Shown one piece after another: positions 15,079 to 48,568 of a stretch of 64,000 nucleotides of DNA. A model generated the notes under the pieces. That model worked only from the letters and a program-made list of their open reading frames with translations. It did not search any database and was not told the origin of the DNA. Within the stretch, counting starts at the first letter, position 1. Every line of letters starts with the position of its first letter. Location: NCBI RefSeq assembly GCF_024223415.1, contig NZ_CP100500.1. One strand, 5' to 3'. A program made the translations under genes and the position numbers. This DNA comes from Escherichia coli (lineage in GTDB: Bacteria > Pseudomonadota > Gammaproteobacteria > Enterobacterales > Enterobacteriaceae).

Positions 15079-15097
15079 TAGACAGGAGACAGTCACA

Positions 15098-32126: not shown

Positions 32127-32128
32127 GA

Positions 32129-34987
32129 TTAACCCTCCGCTCCGGTGATAACAGCAATTACCTGAATGTAGGGTTCTTTTTCAGTCGTCATGGTGTCCTC
32201 AATCCATTCGATATAGCTGTCAAAATTGTGTTCGATTTCGCGTTGTCTCTGCTCTTTACGGCTCTGCTTGACTGACAATTGCTGTTTGTTATCGGCAAAA
32301 TCCAGCTCAAGTTGGCTCAACTGCCGCCCACGCAAAACGTCCAGCTTTTGCAGATGCTCATTCAGTTGCTGGTTAATGTGCGTTTCAAACGCATTCCGAT
32401 CATGGATGAATACCTCCCGGGCATGAGCAATAGCCGCTTCAAGTAAATCCTGCTGGCGTTGGTGATTACGATCTTTACCGCCGCTGTTAGTCAGCTTGTT
32501 ACTCAACTGCGGATGACGTTGTAAAAACTCAGCGAATGGCTGACTGCCGATTAGCGATTCACGGTTAAAGCTCACCACTATCCACGGGTTCACCATCGGA
32601 TGTGATTTACGGTTCGGGAATAACCCGGAAAGAATGAAGTGATCTTCATCGGGTTCAAGCAGGTATGGCAGACGGATAACTGGTGCCTGATGACGACCAA
32701 AAGCCGAAGAGATTTTATCGTCCAGCCACTGCACTACCGGGTTGATTTGCCAGAGATACTGCACATCGGGCCAGGCATGTTGCTCACCGCGAGCGCGCGC
32801 AATCGCGTCGGTGATGACGGTTTTATCCTGACTTAAATAGAGCTGCCAGTTCTCCGGGGCAATTTCAGGCGGTAGCTGGTTGAAGCGGCGGCGTAACTCC
32901 TCCGGAGCCACCAGCGACAAGGTATTATCAGGCAAGGTTTCATACTGGATAGTTTGACCACTGGCTTTCAGGTAACCCAATGCTCTTTCGCAGTACGCCT
33001 GTTCGCTGGCAAACAAGCTGGTGTCTGCTTCGGTGACCATTGAGGCATCGCTGGAAACCGCACTGCATATTTCGCCAAACAGATCGTGTTCGGCGCTTTC
33101 CGAGACGTTGCTGTTCAGCAGTTGATCAAACAGGCTGGCACCATCATCCTGCATCATGAACTCTGCAACCTGCTCTTCTTCCTCTTCCTGGGTAAATTTG
33201 CCGGTAAACTCCGAACTGTCCCCAATGTTCTTCTGCGCCTGTTCGTCTTTGTTGATCAACACTTCCAGTACGCGCATATCGCCATTGATCTGTGGTTCGC
33301 TGGCCTCAGTAAGCAGATAGCGGATTTGAGGCTGATGTTTTTGCCCATAGCGGTCAATACGCCCGTTACGTTGCTGGAATACCATCAACGACCACGGAAT
33401 ATCAAAGTGAATCATTTTGTGGCTAAGGTGATGCAGGTTGATCCCTTCAGATGCCACATCCGAACAAACCAGAAGACGCAACGGCGACTGCGTTTTACCA
33501 AAGGCTTCTACGGTTTCCATCAATACCGTATCGCCCTGATCGCCGCGCAGCGTGGCGATCTGGTCATCTTTCAATTTCAGATCCGCTCGCAGTTGCTGTT
33601 CGAGGAACTCCAGCGTTTTAATACTTTCGGTGAAGATCACCAGGCGATCTTCCGTGTTATTGGCTTTCCAGGCGAGGTCTTTTCGGATGGTGTCGAGCAG
33701 CAACTGGTATTTGCTAAACTGGCTGGCATCAATATTATTCAGCGCCAACAGCAATGACTCCAGTTCGTTGATCTGGCTCTGGCTATTATGATCTTTACGG
33801 CTCTCAAGACGCTTCAGACGATTCGCCACGACGCTGGCACACGCCATCGGGCTGGAAAATAGCGCTTTTTCGAGGGTTATCTTGAACAGACGACCTTTGT
33901 TAGACTGGGCCTGTTCATCGTCATCATCACGGAACTGGCTCTCAACCAGACGACGGTATGCTTCTTCTTCGGCACCGGATGCCAGGCGAGTCAATTTGAC
34001 AATATTGCGCTCGGGAAACTCGCCGGACATCTGATCTTTCACGTCTTTTTTGAAGCGACGGACAACCAGATTTTTATCGGCAAAGTCGGCGTATTCATAC
34101 TCTTTCGGGTTGGCGATCGCCGTCGGGTCAAGCATGTTCATCAGGCTGGCAAAACTTTCAGCCTTACCATCATGCGGCGTTGCTGAAAGCATAATCAGCG
34201 TATCGCTACGCCCGGCGAGCAGTTTTGCCAGTTTACTGCGTAACGAACTGGTTCCACGTTCTGCGACGTTATGGGCCTCATCAATGACAATAATATCCCA
34301 CCAGGCATTTTCCAGATGGTGACGATATTCAATGTCTTGTTTCAGCGTATCGATGGAGATAATGGTCTTGTCAAAATAGTGGAACGGGTTGTGGTTGGTT
34401 GGGATGCGGTTACGCACCTTTTGTAAACCAGCAGAATCCAGGCGGGTCAATGGGATCGCAAAACGGCTCCAGAACTCCTTCTGGAATTGTGTCAGCATCG
34501 ATTTGACCGCCAGAACCAGAATACGTTTTCCGCGCCCACGACGGATCAGCTCCGAAACCAGAATACCCGCTTCCAGTGTTTTACCCAGACCGACAGCGTC
34601 GGCAATGAGTATCCGCTGACGCGGTTGTGCCAGCGCCATCCGCGTAGGATCGAGCTGAAACGGCATGGAATCCATCGCCGCCAGATGACCAAAATGGACT
34701 TTACTGTCTGTCGGTACGCGTTGGCGTAACTGACTTTCGATATACAACTGCGCCGCTTGATAATTGGCGGATTCATCTTCCACCAAATGCGTTTTTGCGG
34801 GATCCAGGATCTCTACTTTTTGTTCCAGTTTGGTCAGAAATAACCCTTCTTTACCGCGCACAAGCTCTGAAATACCATCGCAGGTCAGCAAATACCCACC
34901 ATCACCACTGTCATCCGCCCGGCGAATACGCCATTCGGCATCACGAATAACCACCCGCATACCAGGTGCATAATTTTGCTTATTCAT
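32129..34987 (-). CDS. 952-aa SNF2-family helicase (DrmD-like), first gene of operon
   Basis: SNF2 Walker A LIADAVGLGKTLEAG, DEAH box IIVIDEAHNV, motif III LMLSATPHDG, C-terminal helicase motif …FQQRNGRIDRYGQ. It ends 2 nt before the methyltransferase start. Confidence 0.85.
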   Translation of the reverse strand: MNKQNYAPGMRVVIRDAEWRIRRADDSGDGGYLLTCDGISELVRGKEGLFLTKLEQKVEILDPAKTHLVEDESANYQAAQLYIESQLRQRVPTDSKVHFGHLAAMDSMPFQLDPTRMALAQPRQRILIADAVGLGKTLEAGILVSELIRRGRGKRILVLAVKSMLTQFQKEFWSRFAIPLTRLDSAGLQKVRNRIPTNHNPFHYFDKTIISIDTLKQDIEYRHHLENAWWDIIVIDEAHNVAERGTSSLRSKLAKLLAGRSDTLIMLSATPHDGKAESFASLMNMLDPTAIANPKEYEYADFADKNLVVRRFKKDVKDQMSGEFPERNIVKLTRLASGAEEEAYRRLVESQFRDDDDEQAQSNKGRLFKITLEKALFSSPMACASVVANRLKRLESRKDHNSQSQINELESLLLALNNIDASQFSKYQLLLDTIRKDLAWKANNTEDRLVIFTESIKTLEFLEQQLRADLKLKDDQIATLRGDQGDTVLMETVEAFGKTQSPLRLLVCSDVASEGINLHHLSHKMIHFDIPWSLMVFQQRNGRIDRYGQKHQPQIRYLLTEASEPQINGDMRVLEVLINKDEQAQKNIGDSSEFTGKFTQEEEEEQVAEFMMQDDGASLFDQLLNSNVSESAEHDLFGEICSAVSSDASMVTEADTSLFASEQAYCERALGYLKASGQTIQYETLPDNTLSLVAPEELRRRFNQLPPEIAPENWQLYLSQDKTVITDAIARARGEQHAWPDVQYLWQINPVVQWLDDKISSAFGRHQAPVIRLPYLLEPDEDHFILSGLFPNRKSHPMVNPWIVVSFNRESLIGSQPFAEFLQRHPQLSNKLTNSGGKDRNHQRQQDLLEAAIAHAREVFIHDRNAFETHINQQLNEHLQKLDVLRGRQLSQLELDFADNKQQLSVKQSRKEQRQREIEHNFDSYIEWIEDTMTTEKEPYIQVIAVITGAEG

Positions 34988-35210: not shown

Positions 35211-38200
35211 TTATCCAGCGATAATATAACTCCTAAGGTCATTACCCGGGGCAACAGCTCGCGCTCGCGTGTTTGCCAGCCGTTCAACTTGCTGCGGTAC
35301 TCGCAGGGCAAAATCAAAGAAGGTATCTTCAATACAGCGCCAGTAGCTAAGCCCCATGTCGAGCAGGACATAATGCTGACTGCCATCGCTGAAGGTGACT
35401 GTCAGTTCTCGTCCATGCTCCGTACTCTGGTTATCCCCCGTTAACCAGCTAATTGCTCCCGGCCACGCAGGCCCCAGATATCCTTCTTCAAGTAAAGTGG
35501 TCACAACCTGCTGACGATCTTCCTCATTAAGCCACGCGTTATAGAGAGCGTCGTGTTGGCGAGAGTTGTAATCCAATTTTTTGACGCAAACAGTGAGGCT
35601 GGCGCGTTCCGCCATTCCCTGTTCAACCAGCTCGGTTAAGATTTCACCTAACAAACGCGCCGTGAATGGGCTATTAAGATAACGATCGCTGTACTCAACA
35701 TGCGTTATCTCTTTGTGGCGGGTAAATGCCTGCTTCCAGCCAGCGTGCTGTTGCGTGACTAACGACCAGAAACGCGAACCAAAACCTTCCAGCGGCCCGT
35801 CCAGTTGTTCACAGAGATTGATGCGCACCGCCCCGGTGGGTAAGGCGGGCAGTAAATCTTCTGCACTTAAGGTCTGACCCGAGAAGTTTTTTCCGGACGT
35901 TCCTTTAAGTGTCACTACTGGTGAAGACGCACTTTGTCCCCATAATTCACCAGGGGCAACGGTAGCGCTGTCGTCTGCGGCCCACTGTTGGCTTTGCCCT
36001 TCGCGAGTCACCTGCGCAAGCCAGCGCCCCTTTCCTTGCATGAGTTGCGCAGTGGCAATGGATTTCACTTGTAAGCGTCCTCCCGGCATCGCCGCCAACG
36101 CGGAAAGCTGATGTCTGGAGCTATCAGTTAAGTTTTCCAGCGGCGTGGCCACCAGCAACTCAACATTCCCACCGGAGGAGGCAAACTGGAGCAACTCTTT
36201 AAATAATGGCCATTGGGCAAAGTCCCACTGTTCCTGCGGCCCCGCAAGAACCAGCGAGCAGGAGTCATAAATCTCGCTGTTCAGGCATTGCGCAATACGT
36301 AAACTCAGAGGGTTAGTTTCAACCCGGCTACCATCGCCGAAGTACTGATATTCTGGCGCGAGGTTAAGTCGCTGCAACCGTACATTGGTAAGCAGGGTTA
36401 ATGCATGGTGACGATCTAATCTGTTGACATAATGCTGACTGTCGTAGCTGAGCAAGCAGTGGTGACAAAATTTATCGCAACTGCAATCGAGCAATTTTCT
36501 GGCGTAATTAAAGACATCAGCCCAATGGTCGATCAATTGCACTGCATAACCTGCACCACCCGCATTATTGTCGTATATGAAGATGGAATATCCGGTATAG
36601 CCATTGATATCGCGCGCTTGCTGCGTCGTCACGCCCAGCTCAGTATTTTCGATACCCAATTTATGCGCTAACCCTTCACGCAAAGCGACCGCAAGGGAAC
36701 GCGCGGCAACCTCATCACGGATCAACAGGCCATTATCATCATTGAGTTGCAGCTCAACCATATCTGTACGACTGCTATATCCCAACCACAGATCTTTATG
36801 CACATGACCGTGGCACAATTTATTGCTCCCCTGACGATCGTTACTGCCCCCTCGCAACAGGTAATGCGTATTTTCCCGCTCTGGGTTCTTTAGATTTTCA
36901 GGGGTACGCTGGGGTTGAGTTTGAGATTCTGCCCGACCACATGAGAGGCAAATTGCGTAGCCGTGCCCAAATTCCCCTTCACTGAAGTGGAACAATTCCC
37001 CACTATGGCTAAAACGGTAACGTCCTAGCCCAGCATCGGGTAAAGAAACCCACACCGAAGACGGTACAAGAACACGTGGATCTTTCCAAGGAAGTTGTGC
37101 AGGCATGGATACATCATTATGTGCCTGATAACGAATATCTGTCGCAAAACCAACAGGCTGTAAATAACGCTTCACATCAAGTTGCTGTATATCCGCTTTG
37201 CAGTGACTACATTCGACAGGACGGGTAGTACTGGTTGCCCCCGCACCACATTTACGGCAATGCCAGAACCACGGAATGTGATGATCGCCTGACAGCTCCT
37301 GCCCGCTGGCAAGTACCTTGCCAAGCATAATGCCCGAGGAACGATATACTTTTCCGCCCAATACCACATCTGCACCAGGCGCATACTCGCGTAATGCTGT
37401 AGGTAGATCACGGCTGGGCAATTTTTCAATACGACGAGAAAAGCTTTCTCCCCCTTCATTAGGGTCAGCCTGAGTAGCTTTTATTGCACGACGTTTTTCC
37501 AGCTCATCTGCCGTCAGATAATTGAAATTGACGACGCCAACCGGGAAACCATGCCCCGGCAGGAACGCTTCACTAATGAGTTTAGAAAACAGATATGCAC
37601 CGCGATAATCACGAAGCTGATAAGCGATGGCTTTACCTGCTGGCGTTTCTTCCCACGCGCTGTTATCCGCCTTCAACGCTTCGATATTTTCCAACAGTAT
37701 CGCAAGTTGGCTTCTCCAGCGGATATCAACCTGCTGCATCATTGCTTGTGTGCGGGTCAAGAGCTGGGTTGCCGTCAATGACTTCAGGACGGTTCCCTGA
37801 GTAAGGCGTTTAAGTTTATCCGCCAGCTCATCGGCCTGGTGATTTAACCAATGAAGAAAACGAAGACACTGGCTCTCATCACCTTCAAAGAACCATTTGC
37901 AACTCAGTTTTGTCGCATCAGGTACTTCAGCTCGTAAAAACAGACCTAAAACCAGGGCATTAACATGTCGTTGAACAATACTACTGCTCCCAAAACGAAC
38001 CCGTGGCGCACTGGCAGTAGTGTTGAACGCCCAGAGGGGGTCTTTGAATACCTCCATTCCATGCGCCGTGTTTTTACATAACGTAATGGCAGCAGATGCA
38101 CTCTCTCCACGACGCCCCGCGCGACCTGCACGCTGCAAATAATTTGCCGGCGCTGGAGGAACGTTGTTCATTGCCACCAAACTCATACCACCAATATCCA

Positions 38201-38693
38201 CCCCCATCTCCATGGTCGTGGAACAGTTCAGCACATTAACTTTGCCTGACTTAAATTGTTTTTCATTAAACTGGTTCTGCTCAGGCGTTCTCTGCGCAGA
38301 GTGTTCCTCCAGACGATACCAGCTATCTTTCAGGGCCAGTCGGTCGCTGCGAGTAGACCATAATCCTTCCTCGCGGGCATGTTGAATCAGCGCATTACTT
38401 TCCAGCCACTCCAGACGTTCTTCTCGGGCGATTTCTCCACCACCAGACAAACGCCAGTGACGTACAGGAAGCTCAGGCATTTCAATCAACACTGCTTTTT
38501 CAGGTGCAATTTCTTTGCTACCCGGCAAATACGGAGAGTATCCCAGCAACGTGACGTCTAACGCACGTCGAGTATAGGGGCAACGCCACACTTGCTTTGG
38601 ACTGTAAAATTCAGCCTGTTGTTTAATATCCAGCTGATAACCCGACTCAAACTGACGTAAGCAGGGTCGAATTGCATCCCAGACCTCAATCAT
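35211..38693 (-). CDS. C-terminal segment (1160 aa) of a DruE-like giant helicase; frame open upstream to the A7 tract at 38830-38836
   Basis: Helicase motif VI …ANYLQRAGRAGRRGE… near its N-terminus (matching the C-terminal lobe of the upstream ORF), then Cys clusters (CRKCGAG…CSHCKAD, CLSCGRAES, CSCDKFCHHC). Architecture parallels the 2113-aa protein. Confidence 0.7.
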   Translation of the reverse strand: MIEVWDAIRPCLRQFESGYQLDIKQQAEFYSPKQVWRCPYTRRALDVTLLGYSPYLPGSKEIAPEKAVLIEMPELPVRHWRLSGGGEIAREERLEWLESNALIQHAREEGLWSTRSDRLALKDSWYRLEEHSAQRTPEQNQFNEKQFKSGKVNVLNCSTTMEMGVDIGGMSLVAMNNVPPAPANYLQRAGRAGRRGESASAAITLCKNTAHGMEVFKDPLWAFNTTASAPRVRFGSSSIVQRHVNALVLGLFLRAEVPDATKLSCKWFFEGDESQCLRFLHWLNHQADELADKLKRLTQGTVLKSLTATQLLTRTQAMMQQVDIRWRSQLAILLENIEALKADNSAWEETPAGKAIAYQLRDYRGAYLFSKLISEAFLPGHGFPVGVVNFNYLTADELEKRRAIKATQADPNEGGESFSRRIEKLPSRDLPTALREYAPGADVVLGGKVYRSSGIMLGKVLASGQELSGDHHIPWFWHCRKCGAGATSTTRPVECSHCKADIQQLDVKRYLQPVGFATDIRYQAHNDVSMPAQLPWKDPRVLVPSSVWVSLPDAGLGRYRFSHSGELFHFSEGEFGHGYAICLSCGRAESQTQPQRTPENLKNPERENTHYLLRGGSNDRQGSNKLCHGHVHKDLWLGYSSRTDMVELQLNDDNGLLIRDEVAARSLAVALREGLAHKLGIENTELGVTTQQARDINGYTGYSIFIYDNNAGGAGYAVQLIDHWADVFNYARKLLDCSCDKFCHHCLLSYDSQHYVNRLDRHHALTLLTNVRLQRLNLAPEYQYFGDGSRVETNPLSLRIAQCLNSEIYDSCSLVLAGPQEQWDFAQWPLFKELLQFASSGGNVELLVATPLENLTDSSRHQLSALAAMPGGRLQVKSIATAQLMQGKGRWLAQVTREGQSQQWAADDSATVAPGELWGQSASSPVVTLKGTSGKNFSGQTLSAEDLLPALPTGAVRINLCEQLDGPLEGFGSRFWSLVTQQHAGWKQAFTRHKEITHVEYSDRYLNSPFTARLLGEILTELVEQGMAERASLTVCVKKLDYNSRQHDALYNAWLNEEDRQQVVTTLLEEGYLGPAWPGAISWLTGDNQSTEHGRELTVTFSDGSQHYVLLDMGLSYWRCIEDTFFDFALRVPQQVERLANTRARAVAPGNDLRSYIIAG

Positions 38694-38755
38694 TAAGTGG
38701 TTAACTAACGATTTCCAGTGAGCCTGCTCAGGTTGTATTGCCGGAAAGACTGCGA

Positions 38756-41533
38756 TTAATAGCTTAATGACCCGGTTATAATGGCGATCGCGTATTTGTG
38801 GCCAAAGTTGATCACGTTTCTGCCCTTTGTTTTTTTATCTGGCCCCTGGAGCATTTTTACCGGGAAACGTGCCCCCATCCAGCGAGGGTATTGCTCGTTT
38901 TCGTAAAAAACGGCACTGTTTTCACGGATAAAGAAATCAAGAGTAATCTTCAATAAATTACGCCATTCCGCTAATTGCTTATCGGGATCGGGTAATAATG
39001 TCTTCCAGTCCTGCGGGCAGGTTGTAACTTTATCAATAAATGGATAGTGAATGGCTACCAGACCCAGACTTTCGAGGGTCCAGGCATTTTTAGGGCGGCG
39101 ACCAAACTCGCTGTATAAACAAAAATCTGCAAACTGTTGTTTAGTAAGATCAAGCCCAGACAATTCTTTAAAACTGCCTCTCATTCTATCGGCAAGGTCC
39201 ACACTGCCAACCAGCTGTTCAGACAGCGTTTGCCATGACATGGTTTTCTTCTGCTGATTGCCAGAGTTAACCTGAAGTATTTGCATCGCTTCAGCATGCT
39301 CCGGGCTTAAGGAACTCACCATCGGCTCAATAATTTTAAGTGACTGAATGTCCGCCGGGCTAAGCTCCTCATTCGCAGCCATCGCTTTTTTCAGCGCGTC
39401 GATGGAATTTTTTAAAGGGAGGACAGAAAACTGGCTAATAACTTTCTCTAACAGTGCACAGTGTGCCGGGCTGAGTTTTGCTGAAGGCTCTGTAATATTT
39501 GCCAGCTCCTGGTAACAAAGAGCTCGCAACGTCGCTTTATCGGCATCCTGCTGTAAGCGGGCTGAAATGCGAGCGGTACCCTGACGCGAATCCGTAAAGG
39601 TGAGCAAGCGTCGACCATTAAACGGTCCTAACTGCTCTTCTCTTGTTTGCGGTAATGGAGAAAACTCCAGCAGAGTAGGAATAATTTCATTTAAAAAAAA
39701 GGGCGCGCCGAGCCGAAGCGGACGGAATAAAGGATTATTTTTCCGTTGAGTGTCACCACAGCAAACACAAGCAAAGGAGTTATTGCGCCCCTCACCTCGA
39801 GATTCCGGTCTTAACAGGTTTATTTCATAGTGCTTTTGCGCTTCACTATCAATTTTCCCCGCCGTCGTTTCTTCCAGTGAAATGATATATTTTTCACCAT
39901 CGCTCGCAATCAGACGATCAAATTGAGAGTTATTGTCTAATTCGTCGTTGTCTTCATCTTCAGAATAAACATCTACATCAAGAGCAAACTCATCCACTTC
40001 GGCAGCGGCTGGTTGCGCTACCAACCAGTTCGTTCCATCACCGCGCATCTCCTCTTTGGCAGACAAATAAGCTGAACCACACCCGGAGCAACGTAAAACT
40101 TCAAATACCGGCGCTCCACAGTCACAATATTGGCGCTGCTCAAACCATACCTGACCAAATGGCCAGTCACTCTGATTTAATTCATGTGCTTTATGTGAGC
40201 ATTGTTTGTTTGAACATGCCCATAGACCCGCCAGTGTTCTGATAAACCCATGCATACGTAATGGCGTAAAAGCCAGTTCACCTTCTCGCGATCTTGCCAT
40301 TAGATCGAGGAGTTGCAGTAGCTCACGGTGATTAATATCTGGCCAGGTTCTTCTGGCAACATTGAGCAACTCACTCAAACGTACTGCCTGCCGTCCGGGA
40401 TGAGTTAACGCCTGACGCAATTGCTGGGCCACACGGTAATGACAAAGCTGTTGGTAAAGATCCTGAGGGCTCAGGGATTTAAGAGAAGTTAAAGATGTGG
40501 GGTATTCATGACGAATCAGCGACTCCGATACCCGCGGTATTTGTCGATAACCGCGAACCACTTTGACATCACGTTCTGTAACGCCCGCGAGATCAGCGAC
40601 AAATTTAGCAAGCTCCTTATTACCTTCAGGAGAGTCTTCACCAATAGTGGCAGAGGTCGCGATAATCTGCACAGGTTTATCTGTGCCGGGTCCAACATTG
40701 AAAGCCTGCATAACACGACGTAAAAGCAGCGCTAACTCAGCAGCCTGAGAACCAATATAACTATGGGCTTCATCCAGGACGATATACTTTAACATCCCCT
40801 GAGACTTTTCGATGATTGGGGCATCTTTACGACGAATCAGCATATATTCCAGCATGGTGGTATTCGTCACCATGATGGAAGGTGGTGCTTCATAAATGGC
40901 TTCCCGACTCAAAGCTTGTTCAGGTACTTTCAACTGATCTTCCTGAACTTCGTATTTGGTATGCCGGGTTTCGCCATTATATAGCGCGAAGCGTATTTTC
41001 CCCTTAAATCCGCGCGTCCATTCGCGAAGCCGCTCCTGTTGGCTGTTAATTAATGCATTTAACGGATACAAGAAAATAGCTTGTGTCCCTGTTAGTGACT
41101 GGCGGGTCGATTTTTGCTGACGAATAAGATCTTCCAGAACCGGTACCATAAAGCATTCTGTTTTCCCGGATCCCGTACCGCTGCTCACTAACAAGGATTT
41201 TTTGTCTTCCAGAATCGTTCGCCACGCAGTAAGTTGATGACGAAATGGCACTGGCGCTTTGCTCAATGCATCAACCAGCGGGCTGGAGATCAGCTTGTCC
41301 CGCAAATCCTCCATTGTTTCATCCGCAGGCATCCAGCCGAATGTACTTTCGAATACCGGGTCTGCAAGCAGTGACCCCTCCTGACCGGGAGGCTGAAAAT
41401 ATTGTGATTCCAGATAATGAGTCAACGACTTGCTCCGCAATGCCAACTGACTTACCACCGACCTCACCGCACGCTGATGAAGCTGATTTAGAAGTGGCGC
41501 ATAATGCAGTTGCTGAACGTCCATCAATGACAT
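38756..41533 (-). CDS. N-terminal segment (925 aa) of a DruE-like giant helicase; ends 2 codons... stop shortly after an A7 tract
   Basis: Motif I VSSGTGSGKTECFMVPVL, motif II VLDEAHSYIG, internal Cys clusters as in the 2113-aa paralog. It is in a different frame from the downstream 1160-aa ORF by exactly one nucleotide. Confidence 0.7.
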   Translation of the reverse strand: MSLMDVQQLHYAPLLNQLHQRAVRSVVSQLALRSKSLTHYLESQYFQPPGQEGSLLADPVFESTFGWMPADETMEDLRDKLISSPLVDALSKAPVPFRHQLTAWRTILEDKKSLLVSSGTGSGKTECFMVPVLEDLIRQQKSTRQSLTGTQAIFLYPLNALINSQQERLREWTRGFKGKIRFALYNGETRHTKYEVQEDQLKVPEQALSREAIYEAPPSIMVTNTTMLEYMLIRRKDAPIIEKSQGMLKYIVLDEAHSYIGSQAAELALLLRRVMQAFNVGPGTDKPVQIIATSATIGEDSPEGNKELAKFVADLAGVTERDVKVVRGYRQIPRVSESLIRHEYPTSLTSLKSLSPQDLYQQLCHYRVAQQLRQALTHPGRQAVRLSELLNVARRTWPDINHRELLQLLDLMARSREGELAFTPLRMHGFIRTLAGLWACSNKQCSHKAHELNQSDWPFGQVWFEQRQYCDCGAPVFEVLRCSGCGSAYLSAKEEMRGDGTNWLVAQPAAAEVDEFALDVDVYSEDEDNDELDNNSQFDRLIASDGEKYIISLEETTAGKIDSEAQKHYEINLLRPESRGEGRNNSFACVCCGDTQRKNNPLFRPLRLGAPFFLNEIIPTLLEFSPLPQTREEQLGPFNGRRLLTFTDSRQGTARISARLQQDADKATLRALCYQELANITEPSAKLSPAHCALLEKVISQFSVLPLKNSIDALKKAMAANEELSPADIQSLKIIEPMVSSLSPEHAEAMQILQVNSGNQQKKTMSWQTLSEQLVGSVDLADRMRGSFKELSGLDLTKQQFADFCLYSEFGRRPKNAWTLESLGLVAIHYPFIDKVTTCPQDWKTLLPDPDKQLAEWRNLLKITLDFFIRENSAVFYENEQYPRWMGARFPVKMLQGPDKKTKGRNVINFGHKYAIAIITGSLSY

Positions 41534-44500
41534 ACTCCTGCTTGTTCAAAATAATATTGATAGATTACACCTAATTGCTGTGGGGCTTGCTGATAGTGAA
41601 ATTCAAAAAGCGCAGACAGTTGATGTATCAGGTTATTATCTTTTTGGGTTAACAGCGCTGCGACTAACATCAAATTAAAACGTTTTTCAAGCCGTGAGTG
41701 ATATTTATCTTCAATCCAAAGCTTATTAAAAACAGATTTTAACTCTGGAGTAATAGCACTAGACCAAAGTTCTTTAGGGAAGATACTGATACGCCCAAAG
41801 CTGTCGGGGTTCCTTAATAGCATCTGTTTAGCTTCATTAAACTGCTCACGACTAACAGTTGGCAATACATCACAACCGGTTGGTAGGCTCTCACTATATG
41901 TAAGTAACATATTCGCAATCGGAGCCAGCCGACGATCGATATGTGCACGATGGTTCATAAAAGCAATAAAGGGTTGCAATATATGTAATGCTAATGTTTT
42001 ATCGTTAATCTGTTTCTCCAGATAAGTCCAACATTTTTGGAAAACATCTTTCCAGATTGAAACGGGAATCCATCCCCATGAAAAGGGTAATTCTTCCTGT
42101 ATATCATAAATCGTATCGCTATCACCAGAAAGACATGATGATATTAACAATTGAACAACCACGCGGTAATTACTCGAAATACCTCTGAACAAGTCCAGAT
42201 CCAGCAAGGATAAGCCATTATTCATTTTGTATTTCTTAATATACTCTGTTAATAAACAGCAATAATTTTGCAATGGGTTGTTATCTATTTCAAAAATTAG
42301 CTCATTAAAATTTTTTTTGCGCTGTTCTGGGTCTGCTTCGCATAGAGCATTTAGTAATAAATCATTTGTCTGCAATACAGGTAGCATCCATTTAATTACT
42401 GGTGCAATGCGAGCTGTACCATCAAGTTTTCCCACAATTAACCATGGACTATCCTGAACATTCAGAGCTGAAAGATCATAAGCAAACTCATCTTTTTTTA
42501 ACAATGATATGTGTAAGCCAGGATTCTTAAGAGAAATAGCATCAACAACCAGTTCGTCTATTCTATTTGCAGGAAAAACAACAGAATTTTTTATATCAAC
42601 CAGTAACCCTTGATCGTGTTCAATAAAACTACCATCGTAGCGTTTAATATTGAGTGTTGCTTTATCCTTTCCAAATCTGTCAGAGTAAAAATCAACACAT
42701 AATGTACTATTGCTGTTCCATGCACATGCCAGCATAGCATTTAGCAAATTATAGTTCTCATAAAGTGAAATTTGTTGTAATTTGTCATTGCGTCCTGATA
42801 AAAGAGGAAGGTCGGCATGTAAATAGCGGAATTTTTCAGCTACTGGATTTTCATCCAATAACTCGATATTAAGATATCCTCTTCCAGCACATGATATGGT
42901 TAATAACTCAGCATCTATTCCATGCAAATGTGCTATAGATGCCACACCATCAAAATGAACAGAACCATCATTAGTTACAAATCGGCCACCGCTAACCGGC
43001 TTAGGTAATAATAGTTTAAGATTAGAACCATCTTTCCAGGAGACCCGTAAATCAACGGTATTTTCCAGCATCAGCGATGAATTATAATAAATAGCACACT
43101 CGTTTTGTGAATAATCGGACTTAAGTGTTACTTTTTCATTGTTTAAATATTTATCAATTCTAGTATCCGTTATACCAGAAAGCATAATAATGCCTTGCTG
43201 AGCACTCTCAGGTATAATATTAATATCGAAGTCTGCTGGTAAAACTACAACTTTACCGCTAAATAAAACCTCATCATTAACTATTCGCCGGACTTCTATC
43301 TGTCCTTTTGGCATTTCTGATGCGACAGAATACCAGGCATTGTTACCTGAACGAATGGAACGCCAAAAAAGTTCTTTCTCCGGTACAATGCCATATTGCA
43401 GATCCTTTTTCCAACCGATCTTCGGCCAGGCTCGATGGACAGGATAATCCGATTTAACCAGTTCAACTTCTGTCGATTTAATATAATATTCAATCGCAGA
43501 ATCATAAAGTTGCTGGGTGCGAATTGTACAAACTGCACCATCATGTAAAACAACGCTAAATACTCCACTTATTTTAGTTAAGCTGCGTTCACTGTTTTTC
43601 AGCAACCTTGGGATATCAAACTCACCTTCTCCACTAATATCTAAATGGCTATTTTTCGGTAGCGAAATAAACAGAGCATTTAGCCTGGAACTCACAGACC
43701 CCATACCAACAAGTTTTAGCTGCGATTCACTCTCATTCATCGCTTCAAAAACCCAGGGAAGTTCTTCAGTAAGTTCATAACCGCCTTTTGGAATTGTGTG
43801 ACCTAACAGAATTGGACCTTCATGAAGCGACAATGAGATTTCGGCCATTGCATCTGCACCAGAGAGTTTTTGCATCGCAATAGGTAATAACTCGACCCGC
43901 CAATCTTGCTGCTCATAACGGCTTAGCATTGCCAACCTTGCCCCGCCATTTTTCCATTTTCCTGAAATGATGAGTCGGGTCTGCTCCGGCTGAATATGGC
44001 ATTCAAACAAAGAGGTTAACTGTTCTGTACGCATTGTGGCCGGGAATCGGAACCGGGCATCGCAATACCAACTGTCATCAACATCGACCCAGATTCTTTC
44101 AACCTGAAGACTACTTGCACTGCGTATTTCAGAAGATTGAGATAGTAATCGCCTTACAATCTCTGCAGCATTCGCTTCGGGGAGAACGAGTGGAAGTTTA
44201 AGATGCCAGTCTGGAGAGAGCTTACGTAATGCAGAAACGGGATCACTGCTTTGAGGAGGATGCTCACTAAGTAATCGGCAGAGAGTCTCGCAGAATTCAC
44301 CGGCTATTTCATAGACCAGTTCGTTTTGCATTGTGACAGGAATCGTATCGCCTAATTCTTGTGCAATTTTAGCGGCAGGATATTGAGATGATTGCCCACG
44401 AAGCGCCTGATATATCCTTCTGAAATAGGTAATCAAATAACCGCTCTCATTTTCAATCATGCGGATAGGCAAACCACCTTCACAAGCCAGTGTATGCAGA

Positions 44501-44883
44501 TAACCCGAAGCTTGTCCCAGGTTTCTTATCTTTCTTTTCCAGTAGCGAATGCCATCATTAACCAGCTTCTGTCGATGAACATACGGAACTTTCCAGTTAA
44601 TAGAATCTAAAATTGTGTCCCATTTAGGGTGTCCGACCGTATGAGTCCGGCGGATAAACTCTGCGGCATATATGCTAAATAGAACATCGCTATAGGAAAT
44701 GAATATCGTTCTTGGATAACTACGGGGGGCATATGTACGCAGTAGTTCTGCCAAACTTTCGTACTCTGTATCAGTACAACGGTAAGCATATAACGCCCGT
44801 CCATCAGCTCCGGATAATGAACGGCGACTAAAAAACATGTTAAGCCATTGCAAAAGTGGGTTAACTGGAGTTTTCACAAGCAA
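41524..44883 (-). CDS. 1119-aa protein of unknown function (DruH-like partner of the giant helicase)
   Basis: Large ORF with no motif recognisable by eye. Its stop overlaps the start of the 925-aa helicase ORF by ~10 nt, implying co-translation. Position and size fit the partner gene of Druantia type III. Confidence 0.5.
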   Translation of the reverse strand: MLVKTPVNPLLQWLNMFFSRRSLSGADGRALYAYRCTDTEYESLAELLRTYAPRSYPRTIFISYSDVLFSIYAAEFIRRTHTVGHPKWDTILDSINWKVPYVHRQKLVNDGIRYWKRKIRNLGQASGYLHTLACEGGLPIRMIENESGYLITYFRRIYQALRGQSSQYPAAKIAQELGDTIPVTMQNELVYEIAGEFCETLCRLLSEHPPQSSDPVSALRKLSPDWHLKLPLVLPEANAAEIVRRLLSQSSEIRSASSLQVERIWVDVDDSWYCDARFRFPATMRTEQLTSLFECHIQPEQTRLIISGKWKNGGARLAMLSRYEQQDWRVELLPIAMQKLSGADAMAEISLSLHEGPILLGHTIPKGGYELTEELPWVFEAMNESESQLKLVGMGSVSSRLNALFISLPKNSHLDISGEGEFDIPRLLKNSERSLTKISGVFSVVLHDGAVCTIRTQQLYDSAIEYYIKSTEVELVKSDYPVHRAWPKIGWKKDLQYGIVPEKELFWRSIRSGNNAWYSVASEMPKGQIEVRRIVNDEVLFSGKVVVLPADFDINIIPESAQQGIIMLSGITDTRIDKYLNNEKVTLKSDYSQNECAIYYNSSLMLENTVDLRVSWKDGSNLKLLLPKPVSGGRFVTNDGSVHFDGVASIAHLHGIDAELLTISCAGRGYLNIELLDENPVAEKFRYLHADLPLLSGRNDKLQQISLYENYNLLNAMLACAWNSNSTLCVDFYSDRFGKDKATLNIKRYDGSFIEHDQGLLVDIKNSVVFPANRIDELVVDAISLKNPGLHISLLKKDEFAYDLSALNVQDSPWLIVGKLDGTARIAPVIKWMLPVLQTNDLLLNALCEADPEQRKKNFNELIFEIDNNPLQNYCCLLTEYIKKYKMNNGLSLLDLDLFRGISSNYRVVVQLLISSCLSGDSDTIYDIQEELPFSWGWIPVSIWKDVFQKCWTYLEKQINDKTLALHILQPFIAFMNHRAHIDRRLAPIANMLLTYSESLPTGCDVLPTVSREQFNEAKQMLLRNPDSFGRISIFPKELWSSAITPELKSVFNKLWIEDKYHSRLEKRFNLMLVAALLTQKDNNLIHQLSALFEFHYQQAPQQLGVIYQYYFEQAGVCH

Positions 44884-45094
44884 CCTGCCTTCCTTTGATA
44901 CAATTCGTAACAGGTTACTATCATCATAAAAAAGCTCAACCCGATGAACTCGCTAAAAATGAGACAAATCATTTATATCTCGAAAAAACTTGTTACAATC
45001 ATGAGCGCTACACCGAACTTAACCATATAAATTATGTGTGTTTTGTTTATTTTTTAAACGATTACAACTATCCATTATTTACACAGGTATCAAA

Positions 45095-46747
45095 ATGTTA
45101 GCGCAGCTTTTTGAGCAGTTGTTTCAATCGATAGACTCTACACTGATCACCAATATTTTCATCTGGGCTGTTATATTCGTATTTTTATCAGCGTGGTGGT
45201 GTGACAAAAAAAATATACATAGTAAGTTTAGAGAATATGCTCCAACCTTAATGGGGGCATTAGGTATTCTGGGTACTTTCATTGGTATTATTATTGGTTT
45301 ACTCAATTTTAATACCGAAAGTATTGATACCAGCATCCCCGTATTATTAGGTGGCCTAAAAACAGCATTCATTACAAGCATTGTAGGTATGTTTTTTGCC
45401 ATTTTATTTAATGGAATGGATGCTTTCTTTTTTGCCAATAAACGAAGTGCGTTAGCAGAAAATAACCCTGAATCTGTTACACCTGAACATATCTATCATG
45501 AATTAAAAGAGCAGAACCAGACTCTGACTAAATTAGTCTCGGGTATTAACGGTGATAGTGAAGGTTCTCTTATTGCTCAAATAAAATTACTACGTACTGA
45601 GATTAGCGATTCCTCGCAGGCACAATTAGCTAATCACACTCATTTCAGTAATAAGCTTTGGGAACAACTTGAACAATTTGCAGATCTAATGGCAAAAGGT
45701 GCTACAGAACAAATTATTGATGCTTTGCGACAAGTCATTATTGATTTTAATCAAAATTTAACTGAACAGTTTGGTGAAAACTTTAAAGCTCTTGATGCCT
45801 CTGTAAAAAAACTTGTTGAGTGGCAGGGAAATTATAAAACGCAAATTGAGCAGATGTCAGAACAATATCAACAAAGTGTCGAGTCCCTGGTTGAAACAAA
45901 AACTGCGGTTGCAGGGATTTGGGAAGAATGTAAAGAAATTCCTCTGGCTATGTCTGAACTGCGTGAAGTGCTTCAGGTGAACCAACATCAAATCAGCGAA
46001 CTCTCCCGCCATTTAGAAACCTTTGTCGCCATCCGCGATAAAGCTACAACCGTATTACCTGAAATACAGAACAAAATGGCTGAAGTGGGTGAACTGCTGA
46101 AATCCGGAGCTGCAAATGTTAGTGCATCTCTTGAGCAAACCAGCCAGCAAATACTTCTTAATGCAGATTCAATGCGCGTTGCCCTGGATGAAGGTACCGA
46201 AGGATTCAGACAATCGGTTACCCAAACACAACAAGCATTTGCCTCGATGGCACATGATGTCAGCAATTCCTCCGAAACCTTAACCAGCACGTTAGGTGAA
46301 ACAATTACTGAAATGAAACAAAGTGGTGAAGAATTCCTGAAATCACTAGAGTCGCACTCGAAAGAATTGCATAGAAATATGGAACAAAATACGACGAATG
46401 TGATTGATATGTTCAGTAAGACTGGTGAAAAGATTAACCATCAACTATCCAGTAATGCCGATAATATGTTTGATTCAATCCAGACATCATTTGATAAGGC
46501 AAGTGCAGGGCTGACTTCTCAAGTCAGAGAATCAATTGAAAAATTTGCTCTATCCATCAACGAGCAGTTACATGCTTTTGAGCAAGCAACTGAACGTGAA
46601 ATGAACCGTGAAATCCAATCATTAGGTAATGCTCTGCTTTCAATCAGCAAAGGTTTTGTCGGTAACTATGAAAAACTTATTAAAGATTACCAAATAGTTA
46701 TGGGGCAGTTACAAACATTAATTTCTGCTAATAAACATCGCGGGTAA
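45095..46747 (+). CDS. zorA: Zorya ZorA-like (MotA/ExbB-like membrane domain with long coiled-coil tail)
   Basis: N-terminal TM helices (…LMGALGILGTFIGIIIGLLNF…, …FITSIVGMFFAILFNG…) then ~400 aa of heptad-rich low-complexity sequence. The start is taken at ATG 45095 (AGG RBS); the ORF track uses an upstream GTG at 45038. Confidence 0.75.
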   Translation: MLAQLFEQLFQSIDSTLITNIFIWAVIFVFLSAWWCDKKNIHSKFREYAPTLMGALGILGTFIGIIIGLLNFNTESIDTSIPVLLGGLKTAFITSIVGMFFAILFNGMDAFFFANKRSALAENNPESVTPEHIYHELKEQNQTLTKLVSGINGDSEGSLIAQIKLLRTEISDSSQAQLANHTHFSNKLWEQLEQFADLMAKGATEQIIDALRQVIIDFNQNLTEQFGENFKALDASVKKLVEWQGNYKTQIEQMSEQYQQSVESLVETKTAVAGIWEECKEIPLAMSELREVLQVNQHQISELSRHLETFVAIRDKATTVLPEIQNKMAEVGELLKSGAANVSASLEQTSQQILLNADSMRVALDEGTEGFRQSVTQTQQAFASMAHDVSNSSETLTSTLGETITEMKQSGEEFLKSLESHSKELHRNMEQNTTNVIDMFSKTGEKINHQLSSNADNMFDSIQTSFDKASAGLTSQVRESIEKFALSINEQLHAFEQATEREMNREIQSLGNALLSISKGFVGNYEKLIKDYQIVMGQLQTLISANKHRG

Positions 46748-46753
46748 TCGATC

Positions 46754-47461
46754 ATGGATAAGATTATAGGGAAACAATTACCTAAAAAAGATCAAGATAA
46801 TGAACATTGGGTATCCATGTCAGACCTAATGGCAGGGCTGATGATGGTTTTTATGTTCATATCTATTGCTTATATGCACTACGTACGTATTGAAAAAGAA
46901 AAAATTAAAGAAGTTGCCGTAGCCTACGAGAATGCTCAGTTACAGCTTTATAATGCTCTGGATATTGAGTTTGCAAAGGATTTACAAGACTGGGATGCAG
47001 AGATCGATAAACAGACTCTGGAGGTTCGATTTAAATCACCGGATGTTTTATTTGGCTTAGGAAGCACAGAGCTAAAACCAAAGTTTAAACTCATTCTTGA
47101 CGACTTCTTTCCTCGCTACCTAAAAGTTCTAGATAATTATCAGGAACATATTACTGAAGTCCGCATTGAAGGTCACACAAGTACTGACTGGACAGGAACA
47201 ACGAATCCTGATATTGCTTATTTTAATAATATGGCACTATCGCAAGGTCGTACACGTGCAGTATTACAATACGTTTATGACATAAAAAATATCGCGACAC
47301 ACCAACAATGGGTTAAAAGTAAATTTGCCGCAGTAGGTTATTCATCTGCACATCCCATTCTTGATAAAACCGGCAAGGAGGATCCTAATCGCTCTCGTCG
47401 TGTCACCTTCAAAGTTGTAACAAATGCCGAGTTGCAGATTAGAAAGATTATTCAGGAGTAA
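46754..47461 (+). CDS. zorB: Zorya ZorB-like (MotB-like membrane anchor with OmpA-type peptidoglycan-binding domain)
   Basis: N-terminal TM (…LMAGLMMVFMFISIAYM…) and OmpA-like motif …RIEGHTSTDW…NMALSQGRTRAV…NRSRRVTFKV. Confidence 0.75.
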   Translation: MDKIIGKQLPKKDQDNEHWVSMSDLMAGLMMVFMFISIAYMHYVRIEKEKIKEVAVAYENAQLQLYNALDIEFAKDLQDWDAEIDKQTLEVRFKSPDVLFGLGSTELKPKFKLILDDFFPRYLKVLDNYQEHITEVRIEGHTSTDWTGTTNPDIAYFNNMALSQGRTRAVLQYVYDIKNIATHQQWVKSKFAAVGYSSAHPILDKTGKEDPNRSRRVTFKVVTNAELQIRKIIQE

Positions 47462-47464
47462 GAG

Positions 47465-48568
47465 ATGAAATTATCTATCGACCTTTCAGAACTTATTCAA
47501 TTAGGGAAGAAAATGTTACCAGAAGGAGTCGATTTTTTTCTGGATGAATCCCCTATTGACTTTGATCCTATAGATATTGAGTTATCCACGGGTAAAGAAG
47601 TTAGTATCGAAGATCTTGACCCTGGTAGCGGGCTTATCTCTTATCATGGCCGCCAGGTTCTTTTATATATTCGGGACCATTCAGGGCGTTATGATGCGGC
47701 TATCGTAGATGGCGAAAAAGGAAAACGTTTTCATATTGCCTGGTGCAGAACTCTTGATGAAATGCGCCATAAAAATCGATTTGAAAGGTATCATGCAACT
47801 AACCGCATAGATGGTTTATTCGAAATTGATGATGGTTCAGGTCGGAGCCAGGATGTTGATTTACGGGTATGTATGAATTGCCTCGAACGACTTAATTATA
47901 AAGGAAGTATTGATAAACAACGAAAAAGAGAGATTTTTAAATCATTCTCATTAAATGAGTTTTTTTCAGATTATAGTACCTGTTTTCGTCATATGCCTAA
48001 GGGTATCTATGACAAAACAAATAGTGGGTATGTCGAAAACTGGAAGGAAATATCTAAAGAAATACGAGAAAAGGCCAATTATGTTTGTAATGATTGTGGC
48101 GTGAATTTATCAACCGCCAAAAACTTGTGCCATGTCCATCATAAAAATGGCATCAAATATGATAATCACCATGAAAACCTTCTTGTTCTGTGCAAGGATT
48201 GCCATCGAAAACAGCCCCTCCACGAAGGTATATTCGTTACCCAAGCTGAGATGGCTATCATTCAACGTTTACGTTCCCAACAAGGGCTATTAAAAGCAGA
48301 ATCCTGGAATAAAATATATGACCTGACTGATCCATCAGTGCATGGTGATATTAATATGATGCAACATAAAGGCTTTCAACCTCCTGTTCCTGGGTTAGAT
48401 CTTCAAAACTCAGAACATGAAATTATTGCAACCGTAGAAGCTGCATGGCCAGGCCTTAAAATTGCAGTTAACCTTACTCCCGCCGAAGTCGAAGGATGGA
48501 GAATATATACCGTGGGTGAGCTGGTTAAAGAAATACAAACCGGAGCCTTTACGCCAGCAACTTTGTAA
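47465..48568 (+). CDS. zorE: Zorya type II effector ZorE-like HNH endonuclease
   Basis: HNH motif CNDCGVNLSTAKNLCHVHHKNGIKYDNHHENLLVLCKDCH. It follows zorB by 3 nt. Confidence 0.7.
   Translation: MKLSIDLSELIQLGKKMLPEGVDFFLDESPIDFDPIDIELSTGKEVSIEDLDPGSGLISYHGRQVLLYIRDHSGRYDAAIVDGEKGKRFHIAWCRTLDEMRHKNRFERYHATNRIDGLFEIDDGSGRSQDVDLRVCMNCLERLNYKGSIDKQRKREIFKSFSLNEFFSDYSTCFRHMPKGIYDKTNSGYVENWKEISKEIREKANYVCNDCGVNLSTAKNLCHVHHKNGIKYDNHHENLLVLCKDCHRKQPLHEGIFVTQAEMAIIQRLRSQQGLLKAESWNKIYDLTDPSVHGDINMMQHKGFQPPVPGLDLQNSEHEIIATVEAAWPGLKIAVNLTPAEVEGWRIYTVGELVKEIQTGAFTPATL

What the first reader, a model, noticed from the sequence alone, without database searches (positions are those of the whole stretch)
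35211..44883. Druantia type III-like module (1119-aa protein plus DruE-like giant helicase)
The architecture fits Druantia type III as I recall it: an ~1100-aa protein of unknown function followed by a ~2000-aa DEAD/DEAH plus DUF1998 helicase (DruE). The upstream ORF overlaps the helicase start by ~10 nt. The 1119-aa partner has no recognisable motifs, so the assignment rests on size, order and the helicase partner. Note also an intact T8 tract at 39693-39700 and an intact A8 tract at 42311-42318 inside these ORFs, which are further potential slippage sites.
Basis: partly seen in the sequence, partly recalled or inferred. Interest (0 to 1): 0.5.

Follow-up and report, generated by a model that had tools for sequence, protein, structure and literature searches.

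The report
Known Druantia III defence, helicase frameshifted
This is the well-studied two-gene Druantia type III anti-phage system of E. coli (druH plus the giant helicase-nuclease druE), sitting in its usual island between Zorya II and ARMADA II, but in this strain druE is broken by a one-base deletion, so it is an ordinary, already described system that is most likely switched off here.

Summary
The 1119-aa ORF (41524-44883, minus strand) is DruH: it matches the PADLOC DruH3 model full length (2549 bits), NCBIfam YjiT_fam (984 bits), and PDB 9tud "DruH". The "giant helicase" is DruE, but in two ORFs (38756-41533 and 35211-38693). Together these cover DruE3 profile positions 4-865 and 907-2051 of 2055.

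The split is a one-base deletion in an A8 tract (A7 at 38830-38836, coding strand). Adding one A gives a 2104-aa protein identical to that of E. coli NCTC10444 and 99.5% identical to EDL933 DruE, whose deletion abolishes defence.

The A7 allele also occurs in an NCBI record and in assemblies of several independent sequencing runs. So it is a real, inherited mutation, not an assembly error. It separates RecA1 from RecA2, the Zn-binding (DUF1998/MZB) domain and the PLD domains. Published truncations longer than this N-terminal fragment fail to complement.

The locus is the published OI-172-type island (Zorya II, Druantia III, ARMADA II) at tRNA-Leu. The tract shows A7 and A9 alleles in other strains, but 522 of the 523 complete genomes carrying this stretch do not have A7. 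That fits sporadic slippage, not a regulated switch.

Verdict: already known; low interest.

The parts
41524..44883 (-). druH (DruH, 1119 aa, TTG start). YjiT-family protein, intact.
   Evidence: ORF. PADLOC DruH3 PDLC00041 at 2549 bits, full length. NCBIfam NF038336 at 984 bits. PDB 9tud 'DruH' at 2575 bits. No classic Pfam-A hit. 99.7% identical to EDL933 DruH, with a private S580L substitution.
35211..41524 (-). druE, whole pseudogene. With one base restored it is 6315 nt and encodes 2104 aa. A YprA-like SF2 helicase-nuclease.
   Evidence: The repaired translation is 2104 aa with no internal stop. It is identical to NCTC10444 WP_113850912.1 and 99.5% identical to EDL933 DruE. PDB 9tu7 at 4882 bits.
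38756..41533 (-). druE 5' ORF. 925 aa from ATG 41533, or 922 aa from the RefSeq-type start at 41524. Native residues 1-898, then 24 out-of-frame residues and a TAA stop. Contains RecA1 (Pfam DEAD at window 40640-41242).
   Evidence: DruE3 profile positions 4-865. The exact 922-aa product is NCBI SRA02879.1.
38830..38836 (-). Frameshift site. A7 here, A8 in intact alleles. Codons GAT AAA AAA AAC (D-K-K-N, residues 896-899) become GAT AAA AAA ACA.
   Evidence: Pairwise comparison with NCTC10444. Alignment with NCTC10444, 23CRST011 and RM12579. PDB wild type 'PDKKNKGQ' against window 'PDKKTKGR'.
35211..38693 (-). druE 3' ORF, 1160 aa as listed from ATG 38693 (native residue 945). The native frame is already open from the A tract. 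Contains the RecA2 motifs (Helicase_C at 38106-38321) and the MZB/DUF1998 Zn module (36453-36692). By identity to the solved protein it also contains two C-terminal PLD-like domains.
   Evidence: DruE3 profile positions 907-2051. The exact product is NCBI SRA02880.1. PLD domains are taken from the papers read, not from a Pfam hit.
41522..41540 (-). druH-druE junction. AGGAG, then 10 nt, then ATG 41524 overlapping the druH TGA by one base (TGATG). This suggests translational coupling.
   Evidence: Sequence. RefSeq gene models.
39693..39700 (-). Intact T8 tract (coding strand) inside the druE 5' part.
   Evidence: It is T7, with the gene annotated 'frameshifted', in E. coli strain 150.
42311..42318 (-). 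Intact A8 tract (coding strand) inside druH.
   Evidence: 361 of 505 genomes match the 91-nt stretch around it at >=99%. No tract-length variant was demonstrated.
44884..45094 (.). Divergent intergenic region between druH and zorA2. Presumed to hold the promoters of both operons.
   Evidence: Gene models. Promoter-like matches only. Divergent transcription is stated for EDL933 in the paper read. This is inferred, not shown here.
45038..48568 (+). Context: Zorya type II (zorA2, zorB2, zorE), a published synergy partner of Druantia III.
   Evidence: PADLOC ZorA2 1000 bits, ZorB2 346 bits, ZorE2 586 bits. RefSeq names.
18743..34987 (-). Context: ARMADA type II, co-directional downstream of druE. 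armA 32129-34987, armB 27195-32126, armC 20854-27195, armD 18743-20857.
   Evidence: PADLOC: DrmD-like 333 bits; type IIG MTase 960 bits and DrmMI 191 bits; DruE-like 348 bits; GajB-like 124 bits. The architecture matches the ARMADA II description in the paper read.

Best explanation
**What it is.** The region is the canonical E. coli Druantia type III (III-A) anti-phage operon druH-druE. It lies in the published Zorya II / Druantia III / ARMADA II island next to tRNA-Leu(CAA).

**How intact alleles work (published work on near-identical proteins).**
- DruE is a dimeric YprA/MrfA-like SF2 helicase. It loads on exposed single-stranded DNA or 3'-tailed and forked DNA and unwinds 3'-to-5'. It carries C-terminal PLD-like nuclease domains.
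- DruH is a multi-Ig-domain protein. Different groups report it as a phage sensor, as an ssDNA binder inhibited by ATP, or as a 3'-5' exonuclease that prepares substrates for DruE.
- Together they clear phage DNA replication or recombination intermediates without killing the cell.
- Both genes are required.

**State in this window (shown).** druE carries a genuine, lineage-inherited one-base deletion, A8 to A7 at 38830-38836. Translation ends after native residue 898 plus 24 foreign residues. This cuts RecA1 away from RecA2, the OB and Zn-binding (DUF1998/MZB) modules and the PLD domains.

**Consequence (inferred).** Druantia III is therefore non-functional, or at best very weakly expressed through rare slippage. 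druH, Zorya II and ARMADA II remain intact. The Druantia contribution to defence, and its synergy with the two neighbouring systems, is lost in this lineage.
For: **Identity**
- DruH and DruE3 PADLOC models cover the proteins end to end.
- NCBIfam YjiT_fam matches at 984 bits.
- Pfam finds DEAD in the 5' ORF and Helicase_C plus MZB in the 3' ORF.
- PDB 9tud 'DruH' and 9tu7-9tuc match.
- 546 of 5426 complete E. coli genomes hold the locus at >=95% identity, with the same neighbours.
- RefSeq annotation of NCTC10444 shows zorE-zorB2-zorA2 / druH-druE / four ARMADA genes.
- Repaired DruE is identical to the NCTC10444 protein and 99.5% identical to EDL933 DruE. DruH is 99.7% identical to EDL933 DruH.
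- The catalytic residues K121, D251, E252, R1135 and R1139 named in PMC13192584 are present.

**Frameshift**
- A7 against A8 in three comparisons.
- The identical truncated proteins are NCBI SRA02879.1 and SRA02880.1.
- The same allele is in Logan assemblies of several SRA runs. One contig is 100% identical over 8769 bp. Another differs by 2 SNPs yet keeps A7.

**Loss of function**
- EDL933 delta-druE and delta-druH both lose protection against Bas26 (10.1101/2025.09.22.677730).
- DruE 1-1171, 1-1502 and 1570-2104 fail to complement, and 1-1171 lacks DNA binding and ATPase activity (10.64898/2026.05.13.724758).

**Mechanism of intact alleles**.
Against: - No expression or phage data exist for this strain.
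- The sequencing platform of the supporting runs is unknown. A systematic homopolymer error is therefore not strictly excluded.
- Everything else in druE is pristine: there is no second lesion, and the repaired protein is identical to that of NCTC10444. The inactivation is thus very recent, or the gene may still be used through low-level -1 slippage on the A run.
- The 3' fragment keeps an in-frame ATG (38693). Split-protein complementation has not been tested.
- The published mechanisms for DruH disagree with each other (sensor, ATP-gated ssDNA binder, 3'-5' exonuclease). One group finds the PLD domains dispensable.
Confidence: 0.85

Rival explanations
1. The frameshift is a homopolymer sequencing or assembly error. 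The strain has an intact, fully functional Druantia III.
For: - The lesion is a single base in an 8-nt homopolymer.
- The rest of the gene is flawless.
- The near-identical NCTC10444 assembly itself differs from the window by two other single-base indels, one inside the tRNA-Leu gene and one that frameshifts armA. At least one of these assemblies therefore contains indel errors.
- The only complete genome sharing A7 is an older assembly, RM12579.
Against: The same A7 allele and the same truncated proteins occur in an NCBI record and in independent Logan assemblies of at least five sequencing runs. One of these is a slightly diverged isolate, with 2 SNPs in 8.8 kb.
Confidence: 0.07
2. The A tract is a contingency (phase-variation) site. 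Slippage between A7, A8 and A9 switches Druantia III off and on in the population. Alternatively, transcriptional or -1 ribosomal slippage on AAA AAA A gives a low constitutive level of full-length DruE.
For: - The same tract carries A7 in two unrelated backgrounds: this lineage and O55:H7 RM12579.
- It carries A9 in another set of E. coli contigs. P0004 ends ...PDKKKQRAET and is seen on 5 contigs.
- A second tract is T7 in strain 150.
- From general knowledge, not tested here: a -1 shift of tRNA-Lys on the A run would recreate exactly the wild-type K-K-N reading.
Against: - 522 of the 523 complete genomes carrying this stretch are not A7, and none is A9.
- An 8-nt tract is short for efficient slippage in E. 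coli.
- KKN encoded as AAA AAA AAC is what E. coli codon preference gives by default, so the tract needs no special explanation.
- There is no sign of tract-length heterogeneity within a lineage.
Confidence: 0.06
3. The two druE fragments are both made and reassemble into an active split helicase. This would be analogous to DISARM, where DrmA and DrmB are separate proteins.
For: The 3' ORF has an in-frame ATG at 38693 (native residue 945). YprA-family helicases are naturally split in some systems, as noted in the Figure 3 legend of PMC12458937.
Against: - The break lies inside the helicase core, between the RecA1 and RecA2 motifs. It is not at the natural helicase/DUF1998 boundary.
- About 46 native residues (899-944) would be missing.
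- No Shine-Dalgarno sequence precedes ATG 38693.
- Published fragments alone do not complement.
Confidence: 0.02

Closest known systems
Druantia type III-A of E. coli EDL933 (Z5897/Z5898, O-island 172), ATCC 8739 and ECOR19. 'Cluster 11' of Wu et al. 2026. PDB 9tud (DruH) and 9tu7-9tuc (DruE).
   Same: - Same two genes in the same order, with the same 1-nt overlap.
- Same neighbours: Zorya II divergent upstream and ARMADA II co-directional downstream.
- DruH is 99.7% identical, and repaired DruE is 99.5% identical, to the EDL933 proteins.
- All helicase catalytic residues that were checked are present.
   Different: - druE is interrupted by the A8-to-A7 frameshift at residues 897-899.
- DruH carries a private S580L substitution.
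- Here the island abuts tRNA-Leu(CAA) directly. It lacks the CP4-like element that NCTC10444 has at that tRNA.
Pseudomonas aeruginosa type III Druantia (PaDruH/PaDruE; Loeff, Chanez and Jinek 2026) and Mycolicibacterium smegmatis DruH-DruE (PMC13316683).
   Same: Same family and architecture: a multi-Ig DruH, and a DruE with RecA1/RecA2, DUF1998, OB and PLD domains.
   Different: These are distant orthologues. The PADLOC DruH models other than the E. coli-type ones score only 70-206 bits here. The biochemical details reported for them, such as DruH 3'-5' exonuclease activity, may not transfer exactly.
DISARM class 1 (DrmA helicase, DrmB DUF1998, DrmC PLD) and ARMADA II ArmC.
   Same: DruE resembles a DrmA-DrmB-DrmC fusion built on a YprA-like helicase. 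ArmC in the same window is a paralogous giant helicase (DruE3 model 348 bits).
   Different: - Druantia III has no methyltransferase and no SNF2 partner.
- DrmA models score at most 26 bits on DruE.
- DruH has no DISARM counterpart.

Membership tests
Druantia type III | Signature giant helicase DruE of the type III clade: a YprA-like SF2 helicase with DEAH, Helicase_C and the DUF1998/MZB Zn module. | tested here: met
   - PADLOC DruE3 PDLC00037 scores 981 + 1150 bits, covering positions 4-865 and 907-2051 of 2055. The DruE1, DruE2 and DruE4 models score much lower.
- Pfam finds DEAD, Helicase_C and MZB.
- PDB 9tu7 scores 4882 bits.
Druantia type III | Type-specific partner DruH (YjiT/STY4851 family, ~1100 aa). 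| tested here: met
   PADLOC DruH3 at 2549 bits, full length. NCBIfam NF038336 at 984 bits against a cut-off of 150. PDB 9tud 'DruH'.
Druantia type III | druH immediately upstream of druE on the same strand, as one operon, with no DruA-D (type I) or DruM/F/G (type II) genes. | tested here: met
   The genes are adjacent and overlap. All neighbours tested belong to ARMADA II, Zorya II or a phosphorothioate-dependent restriction enzyme. None gave a DruA-D or DruM/F/G hit.
Druantia type III | Two C-terminal PLD-like nuclease domains in DruE (type III-A). | tested here: inconclusive
   No Pfam PLD hit was found in the 3' ORF. The domains are inferred from 99.5% identity to proteins in which they were seen by cryo-EM. 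An H-x-R motif is present at 2037-2039.
Druantia type III | Both genes intact (a complete system as called by PADLOC or DefenseFinder). | tested here: not met
   druE is split by a -1 frameshift at 38830-38836. The locus is therefore a Druantia III system with a pseudogenised druE.
Druantia type III | Protects against phage, and requires both DruH and DruE. | not testable with these tools
   This is shown for near-identical alleles in EDL933 and ATCC 8739. It cannot be tested for this frameshifted allele.
OI-172-type island (Zorya II - Druantia III - ARMADA II array on a tRNA-associated element) | zorABE divergent from druHE, with armABCD co-directional downstream, integrated at a tRNA-Leu or tRNA-Phe gene. 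| tested here: met
   Gene order and family hits. tRNA-Leu(CAA) at 53329-53413. Published description (Figure 5 legend).

The most novel reading that the evidence does not exclude
The three 8-nt A/T tracts in druHE, above all the A8 at DruE residues 897-899, might act as recurrent and reversible off/on switches for Druantia III in E. coli populations. Lineages could then shed and regain a costly or autoimmune helicase-nuclease while keeping Zorya II and ARMADA II. The evidence consists of independent A7 alleles (this lineage and RM12579), an A9 allele, and a T7 allele at a second tract.
Probability: 0.06. Interest if true: 0.45.

Novelty: already known. Interest (0 to 1): 0.14.

Why it matters
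There is little new here. The locus is the same Druantia III system, 99.5-99.7% identical at the protein level, whose structures, biochemistry and synergy with Zorya II and ARMADA II were published in 2024-2026.

The practical point concerns annotation and phenotype. Tools that call systems from protein hits will either miss this copy or report it as complete. In fact this lineage has most likely lost the Druantia arm of a three-system synergistic island. That matters for predicting phage susceptibility, for example to Bas26-like or recombination-dependent phages.

The strain is also a natural druE-null that could be used to study ARMADA II and Zorya II without Druantia.

Tried and rejected
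- **Pfam-A on DruH.** It gave nothing significant. This reflects the library copy used, not the protein: precomputed Pfam hits YjiT_N and YjiT_2nd exist.
- **Pfam on the 3' ORF.** It gave no PLD hit, so the PLD domains rest on the literature and on identity to the solved protein.
- **Sequencing artefact.** I considered this first. The lesion is in a homopolymer, and the nearest genome, NCTC10444, has indels of its own. I rejected it as the main reading after the exact truncated proteins and the A7 allele turned up in an NCBI record and several independent run assemblies.
- **Phase variation.** Short-window searches across 5426 complete genomes found A7 in 1 of the 523 genomes carrying this stretch and A9 in none. 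One T7 was found at the second tract. The third tract gave nothing clear. These frequencies fit sporadic slippage.
- **Other defence families for DruH or DruE** (DISARM DrmA/B, Dpd, BREX helicases, Cas3). Only weak partial hits to the shared helicase core appeared.
- **Cluster members P0020 and P0022** (952 and 943 aa). They looked like further druE fragments but are ArmA sequences.
- **Promoter and terminator scan.** It was uninformative.
Full report
**1. What is in the sequence**

On the minus strand there are three consecutive ORFs:
- 41524-44883: 1119 aa, TTG start.
- 38756-41533: 925 aa.
- 35211-38693: 1160 aa.

The start used by RefSeq and by the published residue numbering is ATG 41524. 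It overlaps the upstream TGA by one base (TGATG) and lies 10 nt after an AGGAG.

The two 8-nt homopolymers are at the stated coordinates. On the coding strand they read T8 (39693-39700) and A8 (42311-42318).

**2. Identity of the proteins**

The 1119-aa protein is DruH:
- Ten PADLOC DruH3 models hit it. The best covers 1-1117 of 1117 at 2549 bits.
- NCBIfam NF038336 (YjiT_fam, "STY4851/ECs_5259 family") scores 984 bits against a cut-off of 150.
- The PDB chain 9tud_A, deposited as "DruH" and also 1119 aa, matches at 2575 bits.
- Pfam-A as run here finds nothing. Precomputed Pfam entries YjiT_N and YjiT_2nd are attached to the same protein in public contigs.

The two helicase ORFs are the two halves of DruE:
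- They match the type III model PDLC00037 at 981 and 1150 bits, over profile positions 4-865 and 907-2051 of 2055. Models for DruE types I, II and IV score far lower.
- Pfam places DEAD in the first ORF, and Helicase_C plus MZB (the MrfA Zn-binding domain, formerly DUF1998) in the second.
- The intact homologue from the nearest genome matches PDB 9tu7-9tuc at 4882 bits.

**3. The frameshift**

Comparison with E. coli NCTC10444 covers 36 kb, with 10 substitutions and 3 single-base indels. It shows one A missing from an A8 run, leaving A7 at window 38830-38836 on the coding strand.
- The same result comes from alignment with strain 23CRST011.
- It also comes from the PDB sequence: wild type ...LQGPDKKNKGQ, window ...LQGPDKKTKGR, then 21 more foreign residues and TAA.

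Restoring one A gives a 2104-aa protein with no stop.
- It is identical to NCTC10444 WP_113850912.1.
- It differs at 10 of 2104 positions from EDL933 DruE.
- DruH differs from EDL933 DruH at 3 of 1119 positions. One of these, S580L, is private to the window.
- K121, D251, E252, R1135 and R1139, the ATP-site residues described in PMC13192584, are all present.

**4. Is the frameshift real?**

I first suspected an assembly error, because NCTC10444 and the window also differ by single-base indels in the tRNA-Leu gene and in armA. The evidence goes the other way:
- The exact 922-aa and 1160-aa products exist in NCBI as SRA02879.1 and SRA02880.1, on a 536-kb contig.
- The same gene pair is found in Logan assemblies of several independent sequencing runs.
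- One of those contigs is 100% identical to the window over 8769 bp. Another differs by two substitutions and still has A7.

The deletion is thus inherited within a small lineage.

**5. How common is it?**

- The locus is present in 546 of 5426 complete E. coli genomes.
- In a 91-nt window around the tract, only one of 523 genomes shares A7. That is O55:H7 RM12579, where the gene is annotated "frameshifted".
- None has A9. An A9 allele does exist in draft assemblies: P0004, 904 aa, ending ...PDKKKQRAET, seen on 5 contigs.
- The T8 tract at 39693-39700 is T7 in strain 150, which is again annotated "frameshifted".
- The A8 tract in druH showed no demonstrable length variant.

The frequencies look like sporadic slippage, not a regulated switch. 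Lys-Lys-Asn written as AAA AAA AAC is simply the preferred E. coli codon choice (own knowledge).

**6. How the system works (from the literature, for near-identical or orthologous proteins)**

DruE:
- It is a YprA/MrfA-like SF2 helicase with inserted domains, an OB fold, a Zn-binding DUF1998/MZB module and two C-terminal PLD-like domains, of which one is predicted to be active.
- It forms dimers and loads on exposed ssDNA, 3' overhangs and forks.
- It unwinds 3'-to-5'. In two studies it degrades long DNA in an ATP-dependent manner.

DruH:
- It is a multi-Ig-domain protein flanked by helical domains.
- One group reports a likely phage sensor with dimer-dependent nicking activity and a baseplate-J-like fold.
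- Another reports an ssDNA binder inhibited by physiological ATP.
- A third reports a 3'-5' exonuclease that trims 3' ends and recruits DruE.

Points of agreement and disagreement:
- Defence is direct and non-abortive.
- Both genes are needed.
- One group finds the PLD domains dispensable for defence (DruE 1-1723 complements). Another finds PLD active-site mutants dead in the Pseudomonas system.

**7. Consequence of the frameshift here (inference)**

- The break after residue 898 leaves an N-terminal fragment with RecA1 only. RecA2, the MZB domain and the PLD domains are in the other frame.
- Fragments longer than this one (1-1171 and 1-1502) and the C-terminal fragment 1570-2104 fail to complement an EDL933 druE deletion. 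DruE 1-1171 has neither DNA affinity nor ATPase activity.
- No ribosome-binding site precedes the internal ATG 38693.

I conclude that Druantia III is off in this lineage. A residual possibility is trace full-length protein through -1 slippage of tRNA-Lys on the A run, or through transcriptional slippage. This rests on general knowledge and is untested.

**8. Context**

- Upstream and divergent lies Zorya II (zorA2, zorB2, zorE, 45038-48568).
- Downstream and co-directional lies the four-gene ARMADA II system (armA-D, 18743-34987).
- tRNA-Leu(CAA) is at 53329-53413.
- This is the O-island-172 array described in 426 E. coli genomes. It shows Druantia-ARMADA and Druantia-Zorya synergy. It is reported to ride on elements integrated at tRNA-Phe or tRNA-Leu.

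**9. Verdict**

- The interpretation as Druantia type III is supported by every membership test except "both genes intact".
- The system is already known in detail. The only specific feature of this copy is a recent, real, inactivating homopolymer frameshift in druE.
- Interest is low.

Noticed in passing
window 18743-34987 (- strand): A complete ARMADA type II system sits directly downstream of druE: armA (SNF2), armB (1643-aa methyltransferase), armC (2113-aa DruE-like helicase with an HNH-like C-terminus) and armD (UvrD/GajB-like). armA is intact in the window. In the otherwise near-identical NCTC10444 RefSeq record it is annotated 'frameshifted', because one C is missing at the position matching window 34388.
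   Followed up: partly
window 45038-48568 (+ strand): An intact Zorya type II operon (zorA2, zorB2, zorE) is divergent from druH. It is the published synergy partner of Druantia III. That synergy would be lost if druE is dead.
   Followed up: partly
window 50603-52651 (- strand): A 682-aa ORF lies in a low-GC stretch (about 34%), between the phosphorothioate-dependent restriction enzyme and tRNA-Leu. It has no hit in Pfam, NCBIfam or PADLOC. RefSeq calls it 'hypothetical protein'. Given its position in a defence island, it is a candidate uncharacterised defence gene.
   Followed up: partly
window 49108-49980 (+ strand; the ORF is listed from 48952): A phosphorothioated-DNA-binding restriction endonuclease (NCBIfam NF045808, 438 bits; HNH). 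It is a fourth defence gene in the island.
   Followed up: partly
window 15078-15113 and 15451-15695, against 48758-48793 and 48791-49035: A truncated second copy of nanM/yjhT (N-acetylneuraminate epimerase) forms a direct repeat with the intact gene at 14990-16204. The two pieces are a 36-bp match at 100% and a 245-bp match at 92.7%. [quoted passage not shown] It may be a scar of how the array was inserted or recombined.
   Followed up: partly
window 53329-53413 (- strand) and L001 9766: tRNA-Leu(CAA) borders the island. The NCTC10444 assembly lacks one G inside this tRNA gene, which is probably an error in that assembly. It also carries a CP4-like element (antirestriction, radC, yeeU/cbtA) beyond the tRNA. 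The window instead runs straight into ahr and idnD core genes. The window strain is therefore related to NCTC10444 but is not the same strain.
   Followed up: partly
window 43145 (druH codon 580): DruH carries Leu at residue 580 where NCTC10444, EDL933 and 23CRST011 all have Ser (TCA to TTA). This falls in the Ig-like region reported to be under positive selection. The effect is unknown.
   Followed up: no
L002 4577-10891 and other RefSeq records: Newer PGAP annotations name DruE 'motility-regulating DEAH-box RNA helicase', after an older EDL933 report. The 2026 Himpich et al. preprint found no effect of a druE deletion on fliC transcript or motility. The product name is probably misleading.
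   Followed up: partly
window 17370-18070 approx. (L001 45034-45729): A frameshifted transposase remnant lies just beyond armD, at the distal edge of the defence array. This fits the reading that the array is cargo of a decayed mobile element.
   Followed up: no
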